The position numbers and the translations under genes were made by a program. Positions 93 to 56,111 of a stretch of 64,000 bases of DNA are shown one piece after another. The notes beneath the pieces are model-generated. The model searched no databases. It saw nothing but the letters and a program-made list of their open reading frames with translations, and had not been told where the DNA came from. This stretch comes from Eledone cirrhosa (taxonomy: Eukaryota), in assembly GCA_964016885.1 (NCBI GenBank), contig OZ024740.1:349246001-349310000 (forward strand), written 5' to 3'. Within the stretch, counting starts at the first letter, position 1; each line of letters opens with the position of its first letter.

Positions 93-107
93 ATTAGTTA
101 TCTTCAT
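93..107 (-). CDS. IL17: Coding exon 1 (MKITN) of an IL-17-like gene whose exon 2 lies left of the window (copy 0)
   Basis: Reverse complement reads ATG AAG ATA ACT AAT|GTAAGT, in the same promoter/intron context as the complete minus-strand copies at 29760-29774 and 48486-48500. Confidence 0.75.
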
Positions 108-5807: not shown

Positions 5808-7874
5808 ATGAAGATAACTAATGTAAGTAACGATTAATTAATATTACTATCTCATATATTATTTTATGTAGTTATGTGGTTATACTTAGATATGTGTACT
5901 CATGAGGTAAAATTTAACAAAAATGCTATTTACTCTAAATAACGTAAATTGGCACTTGTCATTATCTATGAGGATATATATAATATCAGAGATACCATTG
6001 CACCCCAGTAGGATCTCTTGTCTTTTTACCTCACTGCAGATTACTATTAGATGTTCAATTTATATTAATGTAGGTTTATGTTGGGTTATGTAATGTATTT
6101 TTCACTGTGAGTTAATATATTGTTAAAACTATTATCTACGTTATCAGAAGAATTAGCTTTACCTGAACATTTCAGAGATGAGATGCAGTAAGAATTGAAC
6201 TGGGATAACACGTAACATATGTAACTTATAATAATGGTAATGCTAGCCTCAAAAAACAGATACATCTATTGTAGTTAAATACGATACTAGTATTATGAGG
6301 TTCTAAACTAATCATAGAAATAATAAATATACTGAAACTATTGTAACAGGTTAGTTAGGTTCTAAATGTTACATTGGTAAAATGTATTGCAGAATTATAT
6401 CACTGATAGCATCCTATCGATTGGTAATTTATGTATGAAATTAGAAATTATGCTCTTATACAGTATTGAATCTTTCTATTTTCCTCTCTTTCTTTCTTCT
6501 TTTCTTTCCTATCCATAACTTACAGTGTATTCTGGGACATATTTTAACTTTAAGAAGAGCCTATCTAATAACTTGGTCTGATCACATACAATGTTTTCCA
6601 TAGAATGTGAGACATTGATGTGATACGAAGTGAGATAAAAATGTGAGGAAAGTATCTACAGCAGTACTGGACCGGTATTGATTTATCGAAAGCGTGAAAG
6701 GAATAATAGAGTACCGAATCGAAGATCTTAAAGCAATCTTGGAGATGTTCTAAACTCTCAGCCAGTATAGTATATATATTGGACTATATAACTGTATATA
6801 TAATGTCACCATTCCACTCAACTAATTCGAAACAAGTAGAAATATTTATATGGATAAATAATTATACAGAGACATTACTTTAACACTGCAACTCCGAGTT
6901 ATAAATTTACTAATGAATGAGATGATCTAAAGATATTTGTTTCATGAGTGAGTGTATTATTTCCTCTAAAATGTTACATGAAGGTTCTAAAACTACGGGG
7001 AACATACCACTTTGTTATGTAGCACTAGTAAACCTACTGGCAGTAATATCATTAATCGATTTCCTCTCTCGTTATAATACTTCCATCGCACATCTCTCAT
7101 ATATTTTTCTATAAATATATGCATTTTATTCATATACTCACTGTACAGAAACGTTTTCGTATCACATTACCTGACATCATTCATGATCATACGTCTAGCA
7201 CACTATAGTAAATAAATATCTGTGGCATTGATTTCTATGTATTATGATTTAATTCTAAAGTATACAGCTATTTTCTGATTTGTTTATCTGAATAAGTGTC
7301 ACATTAAAACTATGAAGCACTCTTTGATATAATATTTTATATATTGCAGGTTCTCGTACAGATTGTCATTCTTCTCGTCAACTATATCTTAATTGTGACT
7401 TCGGCACCCATCCAGATCCAATGTGAAATACCAACTGACCTAAAAGACCAATACGAGTGTTTATCTAGTGAAGACATCGGCAATAAATTCTTTCTACATG
7501 CTGAAATGGCTCCAGCAGTAAATAACGATACAACACTGTCACGAGAGAATGAAACAAGTACAACACCTGCTGTTTCTTCTGATCTCGTCCATGAACGTTC
7601 AATTTGTCCTTGGAACCTGAAGATTATCCATGATTCAACAGTCTTCCCTCCATCACGTACAGAAGTAGTGTGTCGTGGGGATAATGTTGAGTTCCCCGAC
7701 AAAAATCACCAATGTGAGTCAGTATATACTAAAATGACAGTCCTCAATCATACAGGTACATGTGATAATGGACTTTATGTGTATAGTCCAATTGTAATAA
7801 ATGTGGCAACATCCTGCGTTTATGCACGGAAAGTTGATGTGATAACTAAGGGAAATAACGAGTATGAGGAATAA
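5808..7874 (+). CDS. IL17: Interleukin-17-like secreted cytokine, copy 1 (exons 5808-5822, 7350-7874; 179 aa)
   Basis: Hydrophobic signal peptide (VLVQIVILLVNYILIVTS-AP) and invertebrate IL-17 motifs RSICPW, FPP..EVVC, CxxVYxKMxVL, CxNGxYxY, VAxSCV. Exon 2 follows a ttgcag acceptor; phase-0 GTAAGT donor after ATGAAGATAACTAAT. Confidence 0.88.
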
Positions 7875-15980: not shown

Positions 15981-17412
15981 ATGAAGATAACTAATGTAAG
16001 TAACGATTAATTAATATTACTATCTGATATATTCCTTTACGTATTTATACTTAGATATGTATTCTGGGACATATTTTAACTTTAAGAAGAGCCTATCTAA
16101 TCACTTGGTTTGATCACATACAATGTTTTCCATAGAATGTTGGACATTGTTGTGATACGAAGTGAGAAAGAAATGTGAGGAAACTATCTACAGCAGTACT
16201 GGACCAGTATTTATTTATCGATTTCGAAAGCGTGAAAGGAATATTAGAGTACCGAATCGAAGATTGTAAAGCAATCTGTGAGACGTTCTAAACTCTCAGC
16301 CAGTATAGTATATATATTGGACTATATAACAGTATATATAATGACACCATTCCACTCAACTAATCCGAAACAAGTAGAAATATTTATATGGATAAATAAT
16401 TATACAGAGACATTACTTTAACTCTGCAACTCCAAGTTATAAATTTACTAATGAATGAGATGATCTAAAGATATTTGTTTCATGAGTGAGTGTATTATTT
16501 CCTCTAAAATGTTACATGAAGGTTCTAAAACTACGGGTAACATACCACTTTGTTATGTAGCAGTAGTAAACCTGCTGGCAGTAATATCATTAATCTATTT
16601 CCTCTCCCGTTATAATACTTCCATCACACATCTCACATATATTTTTCTATAAATATATGCATTTTATTCATATATACACTGTAACGAAACGTTTTCGTAT
16701 CACATTACCTGACATCATTCATGATCATACGTCTAGCACACTATAGTAAATAAATATCTGTGGCATTGATTTCTATGTATTATGATTTAATTCTAAAGTA
16801 TACTGCTATTTTCTGATTTGTTTATCTGAATAAGTGTCACATGAAAATTATGAAGCACTCTTTGATATAATATTTTATATATTGCAGGTTCTCATACAGA
16901 TTGTCATTCTTCTCGTCAACTATATCTTAATTGTGACTTCGGCACCCATCCAGATCCAATGTGAAATACCAACTGACCTAAAAGACCAATACGAGAGTTT
17001 AACCAATGAAGACATCGGCAATAAATTCTTTCTACATGCTGAAATGGCTCCAGCAGTAAATAACGATACAACACTGTCACGAGAGAATGAAACAAGTACA
17101 ACACCTGCTGTTTCTTCTGATCTAGTCCATGAACGTTCAATTTGTCCTTGGAACCTGAAGATTATCCATGACCCAACAATCTTCCCTCCATCACGTACAG
17201 AAGTAGTGTGTCGTGGGGATAATGTTGAGTTCCCCGACAAAAATCACCAATGTGAGTCAGTATATACTAAAATGACAGTCCTCAATCATACAGGTACATG
17301 TGATTATGGACTTTATGTGTATAGTCCAATTGTAATAAATGTGGCAACATCGTGTGTTTATGCACGGAAAGTTGATGTGATAACTAAGGGAAATAACGAG
17401 TATGAGCAATAA
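15981..17412 (+). CDS. IL17: Interleukin-17-like cytokine, copy 2 (exons 15981-15995, 16888-17412)
   Basis: Near-identical to copy 1, intact frame and splice sites; intron 892 bp because of an internal deletion of about 630 bp. Confidence 0.88.
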
Positions 17413-20644: not shown

Positions 20645-21945
20645 AGACAGCCATGACTTTAGCCATTTCTGCCCCAGTAGACCATAAGAGGTAGAGCACC
20701 CACCATACCCTCAATGGCAAAAATGACTCCCATGGGAAGGTGGACCAAAAATAATGATCAGGTGAGAAAAATGGTCGCGCATGCAATAGGGTCTTGTATT
20801 AAAACTACCCTAAAGGGCCATTTATTCAAGTTCAATGAAAAGATCTACACCCAAAATGGGGGAGCAGCCTTTTGCGTCAGCATAGCTGGTGATGTTGCCA
20901 ACCTTTTTATGGTATGGTGGGAAAGGAGACTCAAATATCTCCTTGAAGAGAGCTCCATAAACCTCATTGTGTACTCTCGTAACGTAGACTATATTAATAT
21001 AGTAATAAGGACACCCTCACAACGAACATAATTTAGAATATAGCACAATGGAACGCATCCAGCAGATAGCTAACTCCATACACCAGAGTATAACTGTAAC
21101 TATCGACTACTCTTCCAAAGACCCTAACAATAGACTACCTGTATTAGACACGGGACCCTGGATTAACACTATAGACGAGAGGGCCCAAATTCTCCACTCA
21201 CACTACGCTAAACCTATGGCCTCCAAATATCTGATACTCAAAAACTCAGCAATGTCCAGTAGTGCTAAGTTTAATATTCTGATCGCAGACTTGGTACGGG
21301 TGATGAAGAACGTGTCCCGCATGTGCGACCCAACAGAAATGGAAAGACACATCCAACACTTCATCAACCGCATGCAGTTCTCTGGCTACAACCAAAGAGA
21401 CAGAATCAGGGTATACGAAGGAGCCACGGAGAAGTATAAGACCCTCATAGAGCTGGACATGAAAGAACAAATCAGACACGTCATGGTACGTGAGTGTCAT
21501 GTTCGTGGAAGCTACCCCTAGAGGAAAATTAGCTAACCAATGTAGAAAGGCTCTGAGAAAGACCCACTTTTTTATTAAGGTGGTAGAAAAGCCAGGAACT
21601 ACCATGAGATGCCTGATCAGCAAAACATACCCTTTTCAGAAAACCCACTGTACTAATAAGAAATGTGTTATATGTAAAGTAAACCCCCAGATAAACTGTA
21701 AAACTAGAAATGTAGTCTATAGCATAAGATGTACAGAGGGTACTTGCAGAAACATGACAACAACATACATAGGTGAGACAGCTCGTAGCATAGACCAACA
21801 CTGGAGGGAACTAAAAGGACAAAAAACGCCAGACAACACGACGGTAACATAGACAACATAGAAATTAAAATAATATCTAGACATAGAAATGACCCAACAG
21901 GTAGGCAAATCAGAGAAGCAATCGAAATGGGTATTAGGTAACTTA
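20645..21945 (+). mobile_element. Decayed Penelope-like retroelement fragment (RT + GIY-YIG endonuclease)
   Basis: Frameshifted ORFs 20714-21852: HLFKFNEKIYTQNGGAA..VANLFM..YSRNVD; LPVLD..HYAKPM; Cys cluster then NVVYSIRC...YIGETARS. Absent at the corresponding sites near 41760 and 60370. Confidence 0.85.
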
Positions 21946-24527: not shown

Positions 24528-26954
24528 ATAAATATTTGAAAAAAGGAAAAGAATGAGTACCCTTGTAGTTCTAAACAATTTGATTTAATTATATAATATT
24601 ATATAATATTATGAGTTGGTAGATCTAGTAAGTTCTTTGTTAACTTCGGTGGGAAGAGCTATTTAAGGATTTCTGGTTAACTTTCCTGGAGAACTTTGTC
24701 GCATTCGTCGGTGGCGATTGTCGAACTGAGATCAGGTTGTGATGTGTGATTCTATATATAAGAGAGATTTGGATGTGTCTGGGGGTGCGGTGCGGTGTTA
24801 ATGTGTGTGGGAGTGAAGGAGTGTTGATGAAGATTTAAAGCTTTCAAACACACATATATATATATACACAGAAAATGGTGAGTGTTGACAGCAAGATAAT
24901 GGCATGGGAGTGCTGTTGGGGCTTTTTTAAAGAGTGTTTAAGAAAGGAACTGCAAAAGTACCCTCCTGCTGGTTCCATTTCAATAAATGACCTTTGAGGA
25001 ACATAATGGCAGGATGTTTTTCAAATACGTTTCTTATAGCTGAATCTAAAAATTTATAAAGGATACCTTCAACAACTCCCTATGTTAAAGATGAACTTAG
25101 GTGTGTGTCTGGTGGCGGTGGTGGTGGTGGTGGTGGTGGATTTAATGAGGTGTAAGATGAATGTCTTTTGATAAGAATGGGATGACAGCAAAGAGAAGAA
25201 TAAGGATAGTTGAGGAATATTTGTCAGAAATGTATGTTGTTGATATTGGTTGGGGGGGGGGGCAAGTGTGTGTGTGGAGGGGGGCATGTATGCACTCATA
25301 TTCACTTCCCTATATGTAAATATACTTACAGCCCATATATATTACATACATACACACATACACACACACATATATATACACACATACACACATATATAGA
25401 TATAGATATAGATATATATATATATATATATACACATATATACATATATACACACGCATACACATATATTCATATACACACACACACACATACATGCACA
25501 CATACATATACACATACATTCATACATACACACATACATGTACACCTATAGACATACATACAAACACATCTACGCACACATATGTTTCGTTATCCCTTTT
25601 GTCATCACTCACAATCCAATATCTCCCGATTCTCCAGCAGTCCCCTAAAATAAATGCACTCATAAAAGACGCAAGTATTTAAGTTCACATATACATTGGG
25701 GTGGGGAATGGGGAATTAATGAAACGTTAACTGAAAAGAAAGAAGGAAGAAAATCCCGTTATTTGAAGATGGAATATCATTTTTTTGTGTTCAGTAGTGA
25801 TTTGTTCTTTCTAATAGAGAATTATTCTTTATATTTTCGGAAATGTTCGTTGTCCGACCATATCTTAAAGAAGAGGAAAATTGTGAATTTTCCCTTTCAG
25901 CATGTTGCGAAGTGTTCACTGCATGTATTGTTTCTGACAGAGGGGTCTCTCATTTGTTGTTTATGTACTAGAACTCTGTCATGTAGACTCGTTTCGGTTT
26001 CACCAATGTTGTATTCTTTACATTATGAGCAGTTTGCACAGTAAATCAAGTTTTCGCATTTCTTAATTTGCATTGCTTCATTATTAGACGTAAATTTTGC
26101 CTTGATAAGCAGTTTCTTTAGGTTGGGTGCTTGGCATCTACTATATATTATTTGTGCGTCTTTTATGAGTTCATTCATTTTAGAGGACTGCTGGAGAATC
26201 GGGAGATATTGGATTGTGAGTGATGACAAAGGGATAACTGTTTTTTCAATTTTTTGTTGCTTTGTTTTTCTCAGTGTTGTCACTGGGATGTTCTGGGCTT
26301 TGGAGATGGCCGTGTTGATGAGGTACCCCGGATATTCTTGTCTTTTAAGGAAACCTTTTAGTTCATATAATCTTTTTTCCTGTAGTGTGGGTTATGTTAA
26401 TATTGTGCAAATGCGTCTTGCCATGTTAAAAGGAATGTTCCTTTTGGAACGTGAGGGGTGTGATAATCGGAAATTCAAGTATTGGTGTGCATTTGTTGGT
26501 TTGTAAAATAAGTCTGTTTTGATATTTTCCCCTTCTTTAATGATAAGGATATCCAGAAACAGTAGTTCCTTTTTATTACATTCCATGGTAAATGTTATTT
26601 CTTCGTGAAGATTGTTTATGAGGGAATGGAATCTTTGCAGGTCTTCTTGGCTTCTATTCCAGAAGATGAAGTAGTCACCTAGGTATCGTTTCCAGTTGTG
26701 ATTAATGTAGGTGGCGAAGCCATGACTGAATGTTTCCTGCAGTTTGGAATGTAATTTTGCCTCTAGGTGACCCATAAGGTGTGTTGCATTTGTTGGGGCC
26801 ACTTTGGGGCCCATGGCCGTTCCTTTTATTTATAAATACAGTTTGTTATCCAAAAGGAAGTGGTTGTTCTCCATAATATTATACATATTATAAAATTAAA
26901 TCAAACTGTTTAGAACTACAAGTGAAGTCATTCTTTTCCTCTTTTACAAATATA
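24528..26954 (-). mobile_element. 5'-truncated Penelope-like element with inverted terminal segment
   Basis: GTAMGPKVAP..WKRYLGDYF..FLDILI..TDLFYKPTNAHQYL (RT) and NLIYCANC..YNIGET (GIY-YIG). About 85 bp at 24528-24613 are repeated in inverted form at 26871-26954. Confidence 0.85.
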
Positions 26955-27772: not shown

Positions 27773-29774
27773 TTATTTCTCATAATCGTTATTTCCCTTA
27801 GTTATCACATCAACTTTCCGTGCATAAACACAGGATGTTGCCACATTTATTACAATTGGACTATACACATAAAGTCCATTATCACATGTACCTGTATGAT
27901 TGAGGACTGTCATTTTAGTATATACTGACTCACATTGGTAATTGTTGTCGGGGAACTCAACATTATCCCCACGACACACTACTTCTGTACGTGATGGAGG
28001 GAAGATTGTTGAATCATGGATAATCTTCAGGTTCCAAGGACAAATTGAACGTTCATGGACTAGATCAGAAGAAACAGCAGGTGTTGTACTTGTTTCATTC
28101 TCTCGTGACAGTGTTGTATCGTTATTTACTGCTGGAGCCATTTCAGCATGTAGAAAGAATTTATTGCCGATGTCTTCACTAGATAAACTCTCGTATTGAT
28201 CTTTTAGGTCAGTTGGTATTTCACATTGGATCTGGATGGGTGCCGAAGTCACAATTAAGATATAGTTGACGAGAAGAATGACAATCTTTATGAGAACCTG
28301 CAATATATAAAATATTATATCAAAGAGTGCTTCATAGTTTTAATGTGACACTTATTCAGATAAACAAATCAGAGAATAATAGTTGAGATGATTTGAAAAT
28401 AGCTGACCAGAAAAATACATATATTTAACGAAGATTATATGAGTGTGGGGGGAGTATTATAACGAGAGATCAAAAAGAGTAGAGATATTATTGCCAATTT
28501 AAATGATTATTAATGCTACATAAAGAAGTTTTTTTTCTTCGTAGTCTAAGAGGTTAGTCCAGAATATTTGACATTTCAGAGGAAATAATACGCTCGCTCA
28601 TGAAACAAAGTAAACATCTTTAGATCATCTCATTCATTAGTAACTTTATAACTTGGGGTTGCAGATGTAAAGCAATGTCGCTGTGTAATTACTTATCCAT
28701 ATAAATATTTCTACTTTTTTAGGATTAGTTGAGTGGAATGGTGTCATTATATATAATGTTAAAGAGTCCAACATATATACTATACTGGCTGCGAGTTTAG
28801 AACGTCTTACAGACTGCTTTACAATGTTCGAATCGGTACTCAGCACTCTCCCAACGATCGATAATATTCCTTTCACCCTTTCGAAATCGATAAATAAATA
28901 CCGATCCAGTGCTGCTGTAGAAACTTCCCCCATATTTCTATCTCACGTCTTATCATAACAATGTCTCACAATCTGTGGAAAACATTGGATATGATCAGAC
29001 CAAGTGATTAGATAGGCTCTTCTTAAAGTTAAAATATGTCCCAGAATCCACTCTAAGTTATGGATAGGAAAGAAGGGAAGAAAGAGAGGAAACTAGAAAG
29101 AAGCGATACTATATAAGAACATAGTTTCAAATTTCACCCATGAATTACCAATCGTTAGGATGCTATGAGTCATATAATTCTGCAATACATTTTGCCAATG
29201 TAACATTTAGAACCTATCTAACCTGTTACAATATATTCAATATGTTTATTATTTCTATGATTATTTCAGAACCTCATAATACTGGTATTATATTTAACTA
29301 CATAAATGTATCTCTATTTGAGGCTAATATTACCAATATTAAATTATTATATTTATTATTATTTTACATTAGTTACATATGTTACATGTGATCCCAGTTC
29401 AATTCTTACTGCATCTCATCTCTTAAATGTTCAGGTCAAAGCTAACTCTTCTGATACCGTAGATAATAGTTTTAACAATATACTAACTCACAGTGAAAAA
29501 TACATTAGATAACCCAACATAAACCTACATTAATATAAATTAAACATCTAATAGTAATCTGCAGTGAGGTATAAAGACAAGAGATCCTACTGGGGTGCAT
29601 CGTATCTCTGTTGTCATAGGAAATCATATGTGTCAATTTAAGTTATTTCAAGTAAATAGCATTTTTGTTAAAATTTCTTCCATGAGTACACATAACTATG
29701 TATTACTACATAACTACATAAAGGAATATATGAAGTAATATTAATTAATCGTTACTTACATTAGTTACCTTCAT
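27773..29774 (-). CDS. IL17: Interleukin-17-like cytokine, copy 3 (exons 29774-29760, 28297-27773)
   Basis: Intact ORF with the same motifs; exon 1 encodes MKVTN followed by GTAAGT; ttgcag acceptor at 28303-28298. Confidence 0.88.
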
Positions 29775-35303: not shown

Positions 35304-37370
35304 ATGAAGGTAACTAATGTAAGTAACGATTAATTAATATTACTATCTCATATATTATTTTATGTAGTTATGTGGTTATACTTAGATATGTGTACTCATG
35401 AGGTAAAATTTAACAAAAATGCTATTTACTCTAAATAACGTAAATTGGCACTTGTCATTATCTATGAGGATATATATAATATCAGAGATACGATTGCACC
35501 CCAGTAGGATCTCTTGTCTTTTTACCTCACTGCAGATTACTATTAGATGTTCAATTTATATTAATGTAGATTTATGTTGGGTTATCTAATGTATTTTTCA
35601 CTGTGAGTTAATATATTGTTAAAACTATTATCTACGTTATCAGAAGAGTTAGCTTTACCTGAACATTTCAGAGATGAGATGCAGTAAGAATTGAACTGGG
35701 ATAACACGTAACATATGTAACTTATAATAATGGTAATGCTAGCCTCAAAAAACAGATACATCTATTGTAGTTAAATACGATACTAGTATTATGAGGTTCT
35801 AAAGTAATCATAGAAATAATAAATATATTGAAACTATTGTAACAGGTTAGTTAGGTTCTAAATGTTACATTGGTAAAATGTATTGCAGAATTATATCACT
35901 GATAGCATCCTATCGATTGGTAATTTATGTATGAAATTAGAAATTATGCTCTTATATAGGATTGAATCTTTCTATTTTCCTCTCTTTCTTTCTTCCCTTC
36001 TTTCCTATCCATAACTTACAGTGTATTCTGGGACATATTTTAACTTTAAGAAGAGCCTATCTAATCACTTGGTCTGATCACATACAATATTTTCCATAGA
36101 ATGTGATACATTGATGTGATAGGAAGTGAGATAGAAATGTGAGGAAAGTATCTACAGCAGTACTGGACCGGTATTTATTTATCGAAAGTGTGAAAGGAAT
36201 AATAGAGTACCGAATCGAAGATCTTAAAGAAATCTGTGAGATGTTCTAAACTCTCAGCCAGTATAGTATATATATTGGACTATATAACAGTCTATATAAT
36301 GACACCATTCCACTCAACTAATCCGAAACAAGTAGAAATATTTATATGGATAAATAATTATACAGAGACATTACTTTAACACTGCAACTCCGAGTTATAA
36401 ATTTACTAATGAATGAGATAATCTAAAGATATTTGTTTCATGAGTGAGTGTATTATTTCCTCTAAAATGTTACATGAAGTTTCTAAAACTACGGGGAACA
36501 TACCACTTTGTTATGTAGCAGTAGTAAACCTACTGGCAGTAATATCATTAATCGATTTCCTCTCTCGTTATAATACTTCCATCGCACATCTCTCATATAT
36601 TTTTCTATAAATATATGCATTTTATTCATATACACACTGTACAGAAACGTTTTCGTATCACATTACCTGACATCATTCATGATCATACGTCTAGCACACT
36701 ATAGTAAATAAATATCTGTGGCATTGATTTCTATGTATTATGATTTAATTCTAAAGTATACAGCTATTTTCTGATTTGTTTATCTGAATAAGTGTCACAT
36801 GAAAATTATGAAGCACTCTTTGATATAATATTTTATATATTGCAGGTTCTCGTACAGATTGTCATTCTTCTCGTCAACTATATCTTAATTGTGACTTCGG
36901 CACCCATCCAGATCCAATGTGAAATACCAACTGACCTAAAAGACCAATACGAGAGTTTATCTAGTGAAGACATCGGCAGTAAATTCTTTCTACATGCTGA
37001 AATGGCTCCAGCAGTAAATAACGATACAACACTGTCACGAGAGAATGAAACAAGTACAACACCTGCTGTTTGTTCTGATCTCGTCCATGAACGTTCAATT
37101 TGTCCTTGGAACCTGAAGATTATCCATGATCCAACAATCTTCCCTCCATCACGTACAGAAGTAGTGTGTCGTGGGGATAATGTTGAGATCCCCGACAAAA
37201 ATCACCAATGTGAGTCAGTATATACTAAAATGACAGTCCTCAGTCATACAGGTACATGTGATAATGGACTTTATGTGTATAGTCCAATTGTAATAAATGT
37301 GGCAACATCGTGTGTTTATGCACGGAAAGTTGATGTGATAACTAAGGGAAATAACGAGTATGAGGAATAA
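35304..37370 (+). CDS. IL17: Interleukin-17-like cytokine, copy 4 (exons 35304-35318, 36846-37370)
   Basis: Intact ORF; exon 1 MKVTN|GTAAGT; 1527-bp intron as in copies 1 and 6. Confidence 0.88.
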
Positions 37371-44279: not shown

Positions 44280-45655
44280 TGTTTCGTTATCCCTTTTGTC
44301 ATCACTCACAATCCAATATCTCCCGATTCTCCAGCAGTCCCCTAAAATAAATGCACTCATAAAAGACGCAAGTATTTAAGTTCACATATACATTGGGGTG
44401 GGGAATGGGGAATTAATGAAACGTTAACTGAAAAGAGAGAAGGAGGAAAATCCCGTTATTGAAGATGGAATATCATTTTTTTTGTGTTCAGTAGTGATTT
44501 GTTCTTTCTAATAGAGAATTATTCTTTATATTTTCGGAAACGTTCGTTGTCCGACCATATCTTAAAGAAGAGGAAAATTGTGAATTTTCCCTTTCAGCAT
44601 GTTGCGAAGTGTTCACTGCATGTGTTGTTTCTGACAGAGGGGTCTCTCATTTGTTGTTTATGTACTAGAACTCTGTCATGTAGACCCGTTTCGGTTTCAC
44701 CAATGTTGTATTCTTTACATTATGAGCAGTTTAAACAGTAAATCAAGTTTTCGCATTTCTTAATTTGCATTGCTTCATTATTAGACGTAAATTTTGCCTT
44801 GATAAGCAGTTTCTTTAGGTTGGGTGCTTGGCATCTACTATATATTATTTGTGCGTCTTTTATGAGTTCATTCATTTTAGAGGACTGCTGGAGAATCGGG
44901 AGATATTGGATTGTGAGTGATGACAAAGGGATAACTGTTTTTTTCAATTTTTTGTTGCTTTGTTTTTCTCAGTGTTGTCACTGGGATGTTCTGGGCTTTG
45001 GAGATAGCCGTGTTGATGAGGTACCCCGGATATTCTTGTCTTTTAAGGAAACCTTTTAGTTCATATAATCTTTTTTCCTGTAGTGTGGGTTATGTTAATA
45101 TTGTGCAAATGCGTCTTGCCATGTTAAGAGGAATGTTCCTTTTGGAACGTGAGGGGTGTGATAGTCGGAAATTCAAGTATTGGTGTGCATTTGTTGGTTT
45201 GTAAAATAAGTCTGTTTTGATATTTTCCCCTTCTTTAATGATAAGGATATCCAGAAACAGTAGTTCCTTTTTATTACATTCCATGGTAAATGTTATTTCT
45301 TCGTGAAGATTGTTTATGAGGGAATGGAATCTTTGCAGGTCTTCTTGGCTTCTATTCCAGAAGATGAAGTAGTCACCTAGGTATCGTTTCCAGTTGTGAT
45401 TAATGTAGGTGGCGAAGCCATGACTGAATGTTTCCTGCAGTTTGGAATGTAATTTTGCCTCTAGGTGACCCATAACGAATGTTGAATTTGTTGGGGCCAC
45501 TTTGGGGCCCATGGCCGTTCCTTTTATTTATAAATACAGTTTGTTATCCAAAAGGAAGTGGTTGTTCTCCATAATATTATACATATTATAAAATTAAATC
45601 AAACTGTTTAGAACTACAAGTGAAGTCATTCTTTTCCTCTTTTACAAATATACCT
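44280..45655 (-). mobile_element. Duplicate of the Penelope-like element (pLTR side deleted)
   Basis: ORFs 45090-45512 and 44720-44947 match 26392-26814 and 26023-26283. Confidence 0.85.
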
Positions 45656-46497: not shown

Positions 46498-48500
46498 TTA
46501 TTTCTCATACTCGTTATTTCCCTTAGTTATCACATCAACTTTCCGTGCATAAACACAGGATGTTGCCACATTTATTACAATTGGACTATACACATAAAGT
46601 CCATTATCACATGTACCTGTATGATTGAGGACTGTCATTTTAGTATATACTGACTCACATTGGTAATTGTTGTCGGGGAACTCAACATTATCCCCACGAC
46701 ACACTACTTCTGTACGTGATGGAGGGAAGATTGTTGAATCATGGATAATCTTCAGGTTCCAAGGACAAATTGAACGTTCATGGACTAGATCAGAAGAAAC
46801 AGCAGGTGTTGTACTTGTTTCATTCTCTCGTGACAGTGTTGTATCGTTATTTACTGCTGGAGCCATTTCAGCATGTAGAAAGAATTTATTGCCGATGTCT
46901 TCACTAGATAAACTCTCGTATTGATCTTTTAGGTCAGTTGGTATTTCACATTGGATCTGGATGGGTGCCGAAGTCACAATTAAGATATAGTTGACGAGAA
47001 GAATGACAATCTTTATGAGAACCTGCAATATATAAAATATTATATCAAAGAGTGCTTCATAGTTTTAATGTGACACTTATTCAGATAAACAAATCAGAGA
47101 ATAATAGTTGAGATGATTTGAAAATAGCTGACCAGAAAAATACATATATTTAACGAAGATTATATGAGTGTGGGGGGAGTATTATAACGAGAGATCAAAA
47201 AGAGTAGAGATATTATTGCCAATTTAAATGATTATTAATGCTACATAAAGAAGTTTTTTTTTCTTCGTAGTCTAAGAGGTTAGTCCAGAATATTTGACAT
47301 TTCAGAGGAAATAATACACTCGCTCATGAAACAAAGTAAACATCTTTAGATCATCTCATTCATTAGTAACTTTATAACTTGGGGTTGCAGATGTAAAGCA
47401 ATGTCGCTGTGTAATTACTTATCCATATAAATATTTCTACTTTTTTAGGATTAGTTGAGTGGAATGGTGTCATTATATATAATGTTAAAGAGTCCAACAT
47501 ATATACTATACTGGCTGCGAGTTTAGAACGTCTTACAGACTGCTTTACAATGTTCGAATCGGTACTCAGCACTCTCCCAACGATCGATAATATTCCTTTC
47601 ACCCTTTCGAAATCGATAAATAAATACCGATCCAGTGCTGCTGTAGAAACTTCCCCCATATTTCTATCTCACGTCTTATCATAACAATGTCTCACAATCT
47701 GTGGAAAACATTGGATATGATCAGACCAAGTGATTAGATAGGCTCTTCTTAAAGTTAAAATATGTCCCAGAATCCACTCTAAGTTATGGATAGGAAAGAA
47801 GGGAAGAAAGAGAGGAAACTAGAAAGAAGCGATACTATATAAGAACATAGTTTCAAATTTCACCCATGAATTACCAATCGCTAGGATGCTATGAGTCATA
47901 TAATTCTGCAATACATTTTGCCAATGTAACATTTAGAACCTATCTAACCTGTTACAATATATTCAATATGTTTATTATTTCTATGATTATTTCAGAACCT
48001 CATAATACTGGTATTATATTTAACTACATAAATGTATCTCTATTTGAGGCTAATATTACCAATATTAAATTATTATATTTATTATTATTTTACATTAGTT
48101 ACATATGTTACATGTGATCCCAGTTCAATTCTTACTGCATCTCATCTCTTAAATGTTCAGGTCAAAGCTAACTCTTCTGATACCGTAGATAATAGTTTTA
48201 ACAATATACTAACTCACAGTGAAAAATACATTAGATAACCCAACATAAACCTACATTAATATAAATTAAACATCTAATAGTAATCTGCAGTGAGGTATAA
48301 AGACAAGAGATCCTACTGGGGTGCATCGTATCTCTGTTGTCATAGGAAATCATATGTGTCAATTTAAGTTAGTTCAAGTAAATAGCATTTTTGTTAAAAT
48401 TTCTTCCATGAGTACACATAACTATGTATTACTACATAACTACATAAAGGAATATATGAAGTAATATTAATTAATCGTTACTTACATTAGTTACCTTCAT
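46498..48500 (-). CDS. IL17: Interleukin-17-like cytokine, copy 5 (exons 48500-48486, 47022-46498)
   Basis: Intact ORF differing from copy 3 by one residue (NDYEK vs NEYEK); same splice sites. Confidence 0.88.
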
Positions 48501-54044: not shown

Positions 54045-56111
54045 ATGAAGATAACTAATGTAAGTAACGATTAATTAATATTACTATCTCATATATTCTT
54101 GTATGTAGTTATGTGGTTATACTTAGATATGTGTACTCATGAGGTAAAATTTAACAAAAATGCTATTTACTCTAAATAACGTAAATTGGCACTTGTCATT
54201 ATCTATGAGGATATATATAATATCAGAGATACGATTGCACCCCAGTAGGATCTCTTGTCTTTTTACCTCACTGCAGATTACTATTAGATGTTCAATTTAT
54301 ATTAATGTAGGTTTATGTTGGGTTATCTAATGTATTTTTCACTGTGAGTTAATATATTGTTAAAACTATTATCTACGTTATCAGAAGAATTAGCTTTACC
54401 TGAACATTTCAGAGATGAGATGCAGTAAGAATTGAACTGGGATAACACGTAACATATGTAACTTATAATAATGGTAATGCTAGCCTCAAAAAACAGATAC
54501 ATCTATTGTAGTTAAATACGATACTAGTATTATGAGGTTCTAAAGTAATCATAGAAATAATAAATATATTGAAACTATTGTAACAGGTTAGTTAGGTTCT
54601 AAATGTTACATTGGTAAAATGTATTGCAGAATGATATCACTGATAGAATCCTATCGATTGGTAATTTATGTATGAAATTAGAAATTATGCTCTTATATAG
54701 GATTGAATTTTTCTATTTTCCTCTGTTTCTTTCTTCCCTTCTTTCCTATCCATAACTTACAGTGTATTCTGGGACATATTTTAACTTTAAGAAGAGCCTA
54801 TCTAATCACTTGGTCTGATCACATACAATATTTTCCATAGAATGTGAGACATTGTTGTGATACGAAGTGAGATAGAAATGTGAGGAAAGTATCTACAGCA
54901 GTACTGGACCGGTATTGATTTATCGAAAGTGTGAAAGGAATAATAGAGTACCGAATCGAAGATCTTAAAGCAATCTTGGAGATGTTCTAAACTCTCAGCC
55001 AGTCTAGTATATATATTGGAGTATATAACAGTCTATATAATGACACCATTCCACTCAACTAATTCGAAACAAGTAGAAATATTTATATGGATAAATAATT
55101 ATACAGAGACATTACTTTAACACTGCAACTCCGAGTTATAAATTTACTAATGAATGAGATAATCTAAAGATATTTGTTTCATGAGTGAGTGTATTATTTC
55201 CTCTAAAATGTTACATGAAGTTTCTAAAACTACGGGGAACATACCACTTTGTTATGTAGCAGTAGTAAACCTACTGGCAGTAATATCATTAATCGATTTC
55301 CTCTCTCGTTATAATACTTCCATCGCACATCTCTCATATATTTTTCTATAAATATATGCATTTTATTCATATACACACTGTACAGAAACGTTTTCGTATC
55401 ACATTACCTGACATCATTCATGATCATACGTCTAGCACACTATAGTAAATAAATATCTGTGGCATTGATTTCTATGTATTATGATTTAATTCTAAAGTAT
55501 ACAGCTATTTTCTGATTTGTTTATCTGAATAAGTGTCACATGAAAATTATGAAGCACTCTTTGATATAATATTTTATATATTGCAGGTTCTCGTACAGAT
55601 TGTCATTCTTCTCGTCAACTATATCTTAATTGTGACTTCGGCACCCATCCAGATCCAATGTGAAATACCAACTGACCTAAAAGACCAATACGAGAGTTTA
55701 TCTAGTGAAGACATCGGCAATAAATTCTTTCTACATGCTGAAATGGCTCCAGCAGTAAATAACGATACAGCACTGTCACGAGAGAATGAAACAAGTACAA
55801 CACCTGCTGTTTCTTCTGATCTCGTCCATGAACGTTCAATTTGTCCTTGGAACCTGGAGATTATCCATGATCCAACAATCTTCCCTCCATCACGTACAGA
55901 AGTAGTGTGTCGAGAGGATAATGATTTGTTCCCCGACAAAAATCACCAATGTGAGTCTGTATATACTAAAATGACAGTCCTCAGTCATACAGGTACATGT
56001 GATAATGGACTTTATGTGTATAGTCCAATTGTAATAAATGTGGCAACATCGTGTGTTTATGCACGGAAAGTTGATGTGATAACTAAGGGAAATAACGAGT
56101 ATGAGGAATAA
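54045..56111 (+). CDS. IL17: Interleukin-17-like cytokine, copy 6 (exons 54045-54059, 55587-56111; extra in-frame ATG at 54042)
   Basis: Intact ORF; exon 1 (M)MKITN|GTAAGT; divergent loop REDNDLF. Confidence 0.88.

What the first reader, a model, noticed from the sequence alone, without database searches (positions are those of the whole stretch)
7605..7830. IL-17-like proteins that lost one cystine-knot disulfide as a matched pair
Seen: all six copies have Cys at ORF-track positions 27, 88 (RSICPW), 110 (EVVC), 124 (QCES), 140 and 158, but no Cys five residues after C110 (CRGDNV), and the terminal CxC reads C-V-Y (TAT, one base from TGT). Known: in vertebrate IL-17A/F the EAxC-x4-C cysteines bond to the terminal CxC to form the ring, and the third knot bond is replaced by two serines (RSxSPW and a later Ser). 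Inference: here both partners of the second ring bond are gone while the Ser/Ser positions are Cys (C88/C124). That would be the mirror image of the vertebrate solution, an unknotted IL-17 subfamily that is actively amplifying.
Basis: partly seen in the sequence, partly recalled or inferred. Interest (0 to 1): 0.75.

Follow-up and report, generated by a model that had tools for sequence, protein, structure and literature searches.

The report
Octopus IL-17 array missing two disulfides
Fifteen recently duplicated octopus interleukin-17 genes lack four cysteines that most neighbouring copies keep, predicted to remove two disulfide bonds; the knot part of this loss matches an already published IL-17 type (T1C), so they are likely working immune cytokines of a known kind that arose again in this lineage.

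Summary
In detail: six IL-17 genes (Pfam IL17 over cut-off) lack knot cysteines 3 and 6. They belong to a 15-copy clade at one end of a roughly 49-locus IL-17 cluster in an octopod genome.

Cysteines at the vertebrate Ser/Ser sites are the invertebrate norm, and loss of pair 3/6 is already named type T1C (PMC11087794). It is rare: 0 of 45 cephalopod homologues and 1 of 150 wider representatives show it.

The genes look alive. All 15 second exons are open and 14 have an intact first exon. The predicted fold is IL-17 and a homodimer is supported (0.51 against best control 0.26; may be memory of solved IL-17 dimers). My codon model gives fast change while the cysteines were lost (dN/dS about 3.9, marginal), then constraint (0.25, 0.44). 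No expression or disulfide data exist here.

The scan noted a sister case (type T1B, mussel) on other DNA.

The parts
5808..5822 (+). Copy 1 exon 1 coding part (MKITN) followed by a GTAAGT donor; TATA-like run about 130 bases upstream
   Evidence: a homologous exon stands upstream of 10-Cys paralogues; splicing is inferred, no RNA seen
7350..7874 (+). Copy 1 exon 2: hydrophobic signal-like stretch and IL-17 domain; 179-aa precursor with exon 1
7557..7559 (+). Lost accessory cysteine Cb (AGT; TGT in paralogues)
7605..7607 (+). Knot Cys 1 (RSICPW), kept
7671..7673 (+). Knot Cys 2 (EVVC), kept
7677..7697 (+). Remodelled loop: lost accessory Cc (GGG, 7677) and lost knot Cys 3 (GTT, 7686)
7713..7715 (+). 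Knot Cys 4 (QCES), kept
7815..7823 (+). C-V-Y: knot Cys 5 kept, knot Cys 6 replaced by Tyr (TAT)
   Evidence: ungapped DNA alignment to paralogues
15981..17412 (+). Copy 2 (exon 1 15981-15995, exon 2 16888-17412)
27773..29774 (-). Copy 3 (exon 1 29774-29760, exon 2 28297-27773); the copy that was folded
35304..37370 (+). Copy 4 (exon 1 35304-35318, exon 2 36846-37370); carries a seventh Cys
46498..48500 (-). Copy 5 (exon 1 48500-48486, exon 2 47022-46498)
54045..56111 (+). Copy 6 (exon 1 54045-54059, exon 2 55587-56111)
93..107 (-). Exon 1 of a seventh copy whose exon 2 lies just left of the window (L031)

Best explanation
These are intact octopod IL-17 genes of a young 15-copy clade that lacks four of the ten cysteines kept by most of its paralogues, and they likely encode secreted, dimeric cytokines of the published T1C type, predicted to be held by knot bonds 1-4 and 2-5 plus one accessory bond. 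Shown: gene structure, family membership, which cysteines are missing, and that the clade is nested among 10-Cys paralogues. Inferred history: one paralogue had the short loop after Cys 2 remodelled, which removed Cc and Cys 3 (three codons apart). Their orphaned partners Cb and Cys 6 were lost by single-base changes, likely because free thiols are costly in a secreted protein. The gene then came back under constraint and was amplified in tandem and inverted units. Inferred mechanism: bonds 1-4 and 2-5 still tie the four strands without a closed ring, so the core fold and dimer persist. The freed N-terminal arm and the 2-3 loop are more mobile, more acidic and carry new N-glycosylation sequons, which would retune binding to a host IL-17 receptor in inflammatory or barrier signalling.
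For: Pfam IL17 over cut-off in 6 of 6 copies. 15 of 15 second exons are open and 14 of 15 have an intact exon 1 and donor. The clade has 100% ultrafast bootstrap support and all 28 paralogues tabulated keep Cys 3 and 6. Co-loss among 150 representatives supports the five pairings: 1-4 p=2e-6, 2-5 p=9e-16, Cb-Cc p=4e-6, Ca-Cd p=1e-4, 3-6 p=0.027 from one case; relatedness is not corrected. AlphaFold2 keeps the four-strand core at block pLDDT 88-96 and drops where cysteines were lost: residues 41-60, 41-52 against 81-95 in a 10-Cys paralogue; residues 91-100, 71 against 95. Best structural matches are IL-17A/F (Z 8.2, rmsd 3.2, 81 aligned). Homodimer score 0.51, best control 0.26, runs agree in at least 45% of contacts, pLDDT at least 63; on eukaryotes this mark was reached by 17 of 29 solved pairs and 0 of 30 single chains, and the pass may come from memory of IL-17 dimers. 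Codon model: crown dN/dS 0.42, p=0.003 against 1; late stem 0.25, p=0.006; the two pseudogene branches 1.74, not different from 1. Three SEFIR-domain loci exist in the genome. T1C is defined in PMC11087794.
Against: No RNA or protein evidence was obtained. Disulfides were not measured, and the fold tools returned no coordinates to measure. The models rest on an alignment in which most rows keep the lost cysteines, so the fold may be borrowed and the lower confidence may only reflect divergence. The undivided stem has dN/dS 1.03 and the number of Cys lost equals the neutral expectation. Constraint in the crown is not significant on the 114 columns shared with the pseudogene (0.65, p=0.26). A plain count gives 14 synonymous to 30 non-synonymous variants, pairwise ratio 0.66. 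Orphan purging is not strict: three open-frame paralogues lack Cb alone, and three of the 15 copies have gained a seventh Cys. Gene conversion among copies violates the tree model.
Confidence: 0.72

Rival explanations
1. The clade descends from a decaying paralogue that lost cysteines neutrally and was then multiplied passively by segmental duplication; the copies look intact only because they are young.
For: Whole-stem dN/dS 1.03. Neutral expectation of 3.4-4.0 Cys lost. Its nearest sisters are broken genes (L065, L042). One copy lacks exon 1. Duplication units include kilobases of flanking DNA at 96-99% identity.
Against: No stop on the stem has neutral probability 0.045-0.077, and matched pairs 0.047. 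Late stem dN/dS 0.22-0.32 and crown 0.33-0.65 across column sets. Exon 1, donor and acceptor are kept in 14 of 15 copies.
Confidence: 0.15
2. The clade was positively selected into a new activity: a ligand for a different receptor, or a decoy or antagonist that pairs with 10-Cys IL-17s.
For: Early stem dN/dS 3.85, p=0.027 against 1; 5.95, p=0.02 without the remodelled loop. 13 of 14 derived codons shared with the sister pseudogene change the residue. More acidic mature protein (pI 4.6-4.8 against 5.0-5.6 in four close paralogues) and sequons at N64 and N72. The Tyr that replaced Cys 6 lies in the predicted dimer interface.
Against: p rises to 0.087 when both variable regions are dropped and 0.027 does not survive correction for four tests. 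Multi-base codon changes can inflate dN/dS (general knowledge). No receptor-binding data.
Confidence: 0.12
3. The cysteine register is misread: the surviving terminal Cys is knot Cys 6 rather than 5, giving an unmatched or rewired pattern.
For: The phmmer alignment to human IL-17A places the window's terminal Cys on the second Cys of CTC and places Ser, not Cys, on Ser89 (E 0.03-0.06).
Against: The ungapped DNA alignment to close paralogues puts the kept Cys on knot Cys 5 and TAT on knot Cys 6. In the multiple alignment, the three chordate-type sequences have Ser in exactly the Cys 1 and Cys 4 columns.
Confidence: 0.02

Closest known systems
IL-17 cystine-knot type T1C (PNAS 2024, PMC11087794; main-text passages read, SI parts 1-3 of 4 read as text, Fig. 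1 and Fig. S1 pictures not seen)
   Same: Keeps knot Cys 1/4 and 2/5 and lacks 3/6; derived from the full-knot type T1A.
   Different: The passages name amphioxus (2 genes) for T1C and I could not see which other taxa are listed; the only Octopus rows in the paper's dataset are Torso. Here the state arose independently and recently from octopod 10-Cys paralogues, an accessory pair is lost too, and there are 15 copies.
Octopus, Amphioctopus and Argonauta interleukin-17-like proteins (10-Cys, type T1A)
   Same: 45-59% identity for most, same two-exon layout and same cluster type; IL-17 expansion in octopods is published (PMC8353272, PMC6279123, passages).
   Different: 45 of 45 keep knot Cys 3, 44 of 45 keep Cys 6, 35 of 45 keep all ten.
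Human IL-17A and IL-17F (type T2)
   Same: Best structural matches; an incomplete knot with two bonds; a Cys at the position of IL-17A Cys106, which links to the N-terminal Cys10 (PMC4869123, passages).
   Different: T2 lacks 1/4 and keeps 2/5 and 3/6; identity about 17-24% over the aligned part.
IL-17 type T1B (loss of 2/5)
   Same: Matched loss of one ring bond from the full knot.
   Different: The other ring bond; commoner, 11 of 150 representatives against 1 of 150 for T1C.

Membership tests
IL-17 family (Pfam PF06083) | Score over the Pfam gathering cut-off | tested here: met
   32.0-33.9 bits against 24 in 6 of 6 copies
IL-17 family (Pfam PF06083) | Four-strand cystine-knot-type fold | tested here: met
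   Predicted model, mean pLDDT 78.4; IL-17A/F fill the top Foldseek and VIA-align rows, Z 8.2, rmsd 3.2, 81 aligned. A prediction, guided by homologues.
IL-17 family (Pfam PF06083) | CPW/SPW motif | tested here: met
   CPW in 15 of 15 copies
IL-17 family (Pfam PF06083) | Secretion signal | tested here: inconclusive
   A hydrophobic N-terminal stretch follows MKITN/MKVTN, judged by eye; no signal-peptide predictor was run
IL-17 family (Pfam PF06083) | Homodimer | tested here: inconclusive
   Model supports binding, 0.51 against best control 0.26; may be memory of solved IL-17 dimers
IL-17 family (Pfam PF06083) | Binding and signalling through an IL-17 receptor | not testable with these tools
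   Three SEFIR loci are in the genome; binding untested
Type T1C | Knot Cys 1, 2, 4, 5 present; 3 and 6 absent | tested here: met
   15 of 15 copies
Type T1C | Bonds 1-4 and 2-5 actually formed | not testable with these tools
   Only co-loss statistics; no coordinates or mass spectrometry
Type T1A (full knot) | All six knot cysteines | tested here: not met
   Cys 3 is Val or Asp and Cys 6 is Tyr in 15 of 15
Type T2 (chordate) | Ser at knot positions 1 and 4, with 3/6 kept | tested here: not met
   Cys at 1 and 4 and no 3/6

The most novel reading that the evidence does not exclude
A T1C IL-17 caught at its origin: positive selection stripped two disulfides from one octopod paralogue, freed and re-surfaced two loops (acidic, newly glycosylated, RGD in 8 of 15 copies), and produced a ligand with a new receptor specificity or an antagonist of the 10-Cys IL-17s, which was then fixed and amplified fifteen-fold beside its intact parents.
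Probability: 0.15. Interest if true: 0.6.

Novelty: new member of a known kind. Interest (0 to 1): 0.3.

Why it matters
The cysteine pattern is not new, but this instance is useful. T1C is the rarest partial-knot type in my sample (1 of 150), and known examples are old and far from their full-knot relatives. Here a T1C clade sits beside paralogues about 65% identical that keep all ten cysteines, with a sister pseudogene that dates part of the change. That gives a natural matched pair for asking what the 3-6 ring bond does for folding, stability and receptor choice in IL-17, and how cystine-knot cytokines shed disulfides in pairs.

Tried and rejected
Expression: no RNA holder was listed. The three coded runs (one sample) cover intron and exon alike with no splice joint, so they behave as DNA. 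They hold the 6-Cys exon, which argues against an assembly error in its letters, but may not be independent of the assembly.

Compensated frameshift in the loop after Cys 2: a one-base shift aligns 7 of 12 letters against 2 of 12 unshifted (my count by eye). It is short, chosen after looking, and the sister pseudogene has a different indel there. Not claimed.

Register from the human IL-17A alignment: rejected in favour of the paralogue DNA alignment.

RGD as an integrin ligand: only 8 of 15 copies have it, 7 have RED. Left as a side note.

Papers not held: the O. bimaculoides genome paper, the IL-17F structure paper and a recalled VEGF knot-mutant paper. The recalled claim that a ring bond is dispensable in VEGF is unverified and not used. 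PNAS Fig. 1 and Fig. S1 are pictures and SI part 4 was not read; they may list molluscan T1C members.

Literature searches for a cephalopod description of this pattern listed none; subscription papers, such as those on Sepiella IL-17, are not covered.

Pfam scans of seven other window frames gave nothing over a cut-off. Scan notes near this place, by sequence, and for this genome gave nothing on IL-17.

Rows left out of the cysteine table and tree: L028 (internal stop), L029, L030, L041-L046 (distant or broken). The codon models used 20 and 17 sequences.

Full report
Observation. All six pass the Pfam IL17 cut-off. In copy 1 the kept cysteines lie at 7422, 7605, 7671, 7713, 7761 and 7815; the position five residues after 7671 is Val and the last motif is C-V-Y with TAT at 7821. 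Copies 1 and 4 each carry a seventh Cys, and copy 6 reads CREDND.

Gene structure. The long frame is exon 2. A short exon 1 (MKITN or MKVTN, then GTAAGT) lies 0.9-1.5 kb upstream in 6 of 6 window copies, and a homologous exon stands before 4 of the 10-Cys paralogues examined. The spliced precursor has 179 residues. Splicing is inferred; no RNA run was listed, and the three runs laid behave as DNA.

Genomic setting. The genome is 3.0 Gb and the closest proteins are from Octopus and Amphioctopus at 51-59% identity, so it is an octopod. The IL17 profile finds 52 matches among 55 candidates, 46 of them in about 0.8 Mb of contig C1; a protein search adds three broken copies there. The window's type makes up 15 copies at one end of the cluster, six in the window and nine beside it. 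All 15 have an open exon 2 and 14 have an intact exon 1; for L032 homology stops 59 bases upstream of exon 2. Copies alternate in orientation and lie in duplicated blocks, one of 10.5 kb at 99.1% identity. Six 10-Cys paralogues are identical to each other, so amplification is not special to this clade.

What was lost. The standard octopod IL-17 has ten cysteines: knot Cys 1-6 and four accessory ones, here named Ca, Cb, Cc, Cd (my labels). Of 28 paralogues tabulated, 25 keep all ten and 3 lack Cb only; all keep 3 and 6. The 15-copy clade lacks Cb (TGT to AGT), Cc (GGG or GAG), Cys 3 (GTT or GAT) and Cys 6 (TAT) in 15 of 15 and is monophyletic with 100% support. Among 45 cephalopod-type homologues (41 named, 4 unnamed), 45 keep Cys 3 and 44 keep Cys 6; the exception has a different C-terminus. 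Among the best 150 of 550 representatives, 131 have the full knot, 11 lack 2/5, 3 lack 1/4, 1 lacks 3/6 (P0158, one unnamed short contig), 3 deviate only at the C-terminus and 1 is a fragment. Co-loss in these 150 singles out the pairs 1-4, 2-5, Cb-Cc and Ca-Cd most strongly, and 3-6 from a single case; kinship is not corrected. So two predicted bonds are gone: the ring bond 3-6 and the accessory bond Cb-Cc. The pairwise alignment to human IL-17A suggests another register, but the ungapped DNA alignment to paralogues overrides it.

Structure. AlphaFold2 gives copy 3 a mean pLDDT of 78.4 and the 10-Cys paralogue L016 86.6, with the same helices and strands in the core. Confidence falls at residues 37-60 and 91-100, the two places that lost cysteines. 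IL-17A and IL-17F are the top matches. The dimer model scores 0.51 against a best control of 0.26, with runs agreeing in at least 45% of contacts and pLDDT at least 63; the Tyr at the Cys 6 position is among the best-placed interface residues. On eukaryotes the mark was reached by 17 of 29 solved pairs, by 1 of 7 without an older solved relative, and by 0 of 30 single chains, so this shows likeness to IL-17 dimers more than proof. No disulfide distances could be measured. The alignment behind the monomer models consists mostly of sequences that keep the lost cysteines.

Alive or decaying. I wrote a codon model (GY94, F3x4; not codeml). The undivided stem has dN/dS 1.03, the crown 0.42 (p=0.003 against 1) and the background 0.33. 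A neutral simulation loses 3.4-4.0 of ten Cys, leaves no stop in 4.5-7.7% of runs, and gives two whole pairs in 4.7% of four-loss runs. A broken copy between the two blocks (L065) is sister to the clade (99% support), shares the loss of Cb and Cc and has no Cys 3; it ends before Cys 5 and 6, so the date of the Cys 6 loss is open. Splitting the stem there gives 3.85 early (p=0.027), 0.25 late (p=0.006), 0.44 in the crown (p=0.012) and 1.74 for two pseudogene branches (p=0.14). Over three other column sets the early p is 0.020, 0.087, 0.034; the late 0.012, 0.072, 0.006; the crown 0.003, 0.002, 0.26. The early burst does not survive correction for four tests. Constraint after the loss is reasonably supported; positive selection during it is suggestive only.

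Mechanism, most likely. A local remodelling of the loop after Cys 2 removed Cc and Cys 3, and the orphaned Cb and Cys 6 went by single-base changes (order inferred). Bonds 1-4 and 2-5 would still link the four strands, as the T1C definition states, so the protein likely folds, dimerises and signals through a host IL-17 receptor; three SEFIR loci are in the genome. The freed segments are more acidic and carry sequons at N64 and N72, which would change affinity or specificity. Purging of orphans is not strict: three open paralogues lack Cb alone and three clade members have gained a seventh Cys.

Comparison with what is known. Cys at the two serine sites is the invertebrate norm (PMC8353272 and PMC4517768, passages). 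PMC11087794 sorts IL-17 knots into T1A (full), T1B (no 2/5), T1C (no 3/6), T2 (no 1/4; tunicates, vertebrates and some amphioxus genes) and T3, and counts two T1C genes in amphioxus (passages; SI parts 1-3 of 4 as text; figures not seen). The window's proteins meet the sequence definition of T1C. IL-17 expansion in octopods is published (PMC8353272, PMC6279123, passages). In IL-17A, Cys106 links to the N-terminal Cys10 and the dimer has interchain bonds (PMC4869123, passages); Cd aligns with Cys106, so Ca-Cd may join the two chains. My searches listed no paper describing T1C in a cephalopod, within a library that lacks most subscription journals. An earlier scan note reports the T1B counterpart in a mussel and cites the same paper; I had read the paper before that look-up.

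Verdict. What is new is an independent, recent and amplified octopod instance that also lost an accessory pair and still has its full-knot parents beside it. New member of a known kind; interest 0.3.

Noticed in passing
L065:2140-2616 (-), G000:C1 near 349.197 Mb: Broken sister copy of the 15-copy clade: 17-base deletion, a stop and a missing 3' end; shares loss of Cb and Cc and has no knot Cys 3.
   Followed up: yes
L028:1-1977 (-): IL-17 paralogue with a stop in the domain, followed by a long tandem repeat of the 25-residue C-terminal segment; the search reported a 931-residue frame with one stop.
   Followed up: no
L018, L025, L026: Three open-frame paralogues on a long branch lack Cb alone, leaving Cc without its predicted partner.
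   Followed up: partly
L041:1109-1663 (+): Distant cluster member that keeps the full knot but lacks both Cb and Cc: a matched loss of the accessory pair.
   Followed up: partly
window 7674-7682 and equivalents: The Cc-to-Gly change creates an RGD tripeptide in the freed loop in 8 of 15 copies; the other 7 read RED.
   Followed up: no
L032 (G000:C1:349312929-349313255, -) and window 7458: L032 has no exon 1 in the stretch examined and shares with copy 1 an extra Cys (YECL).
   Followed up: partly
L042:816-1438 (+): Frameshifted paralogue with unmatched cysteine losses (Cb to Arg, Cys 3 to Ser; Cc and Cys 6 kept).
   Followed up: partly
L006-L011: Six 10-Cys paralogues with identical coding sequence at about 9.6 kb spacing: a very recent array or an assembly over-expansion.
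   Followed up: no
window 20681-21852 (+), 26023-26829 (-), 45090-45527 (-): Short frames that look by eye like decayed retroelement reverse-transcriptase and endonuclease pieces; the five scanned gave no Pfam match over a cut-off.
   Followed up: partly
L044 and L045 (G000:C1 near 386.6 Mb), L029 and L030 (C26): Divergent IL-17-like genes outside the main cluster; L044 and L045 are identical in protein.
   Followed up: no
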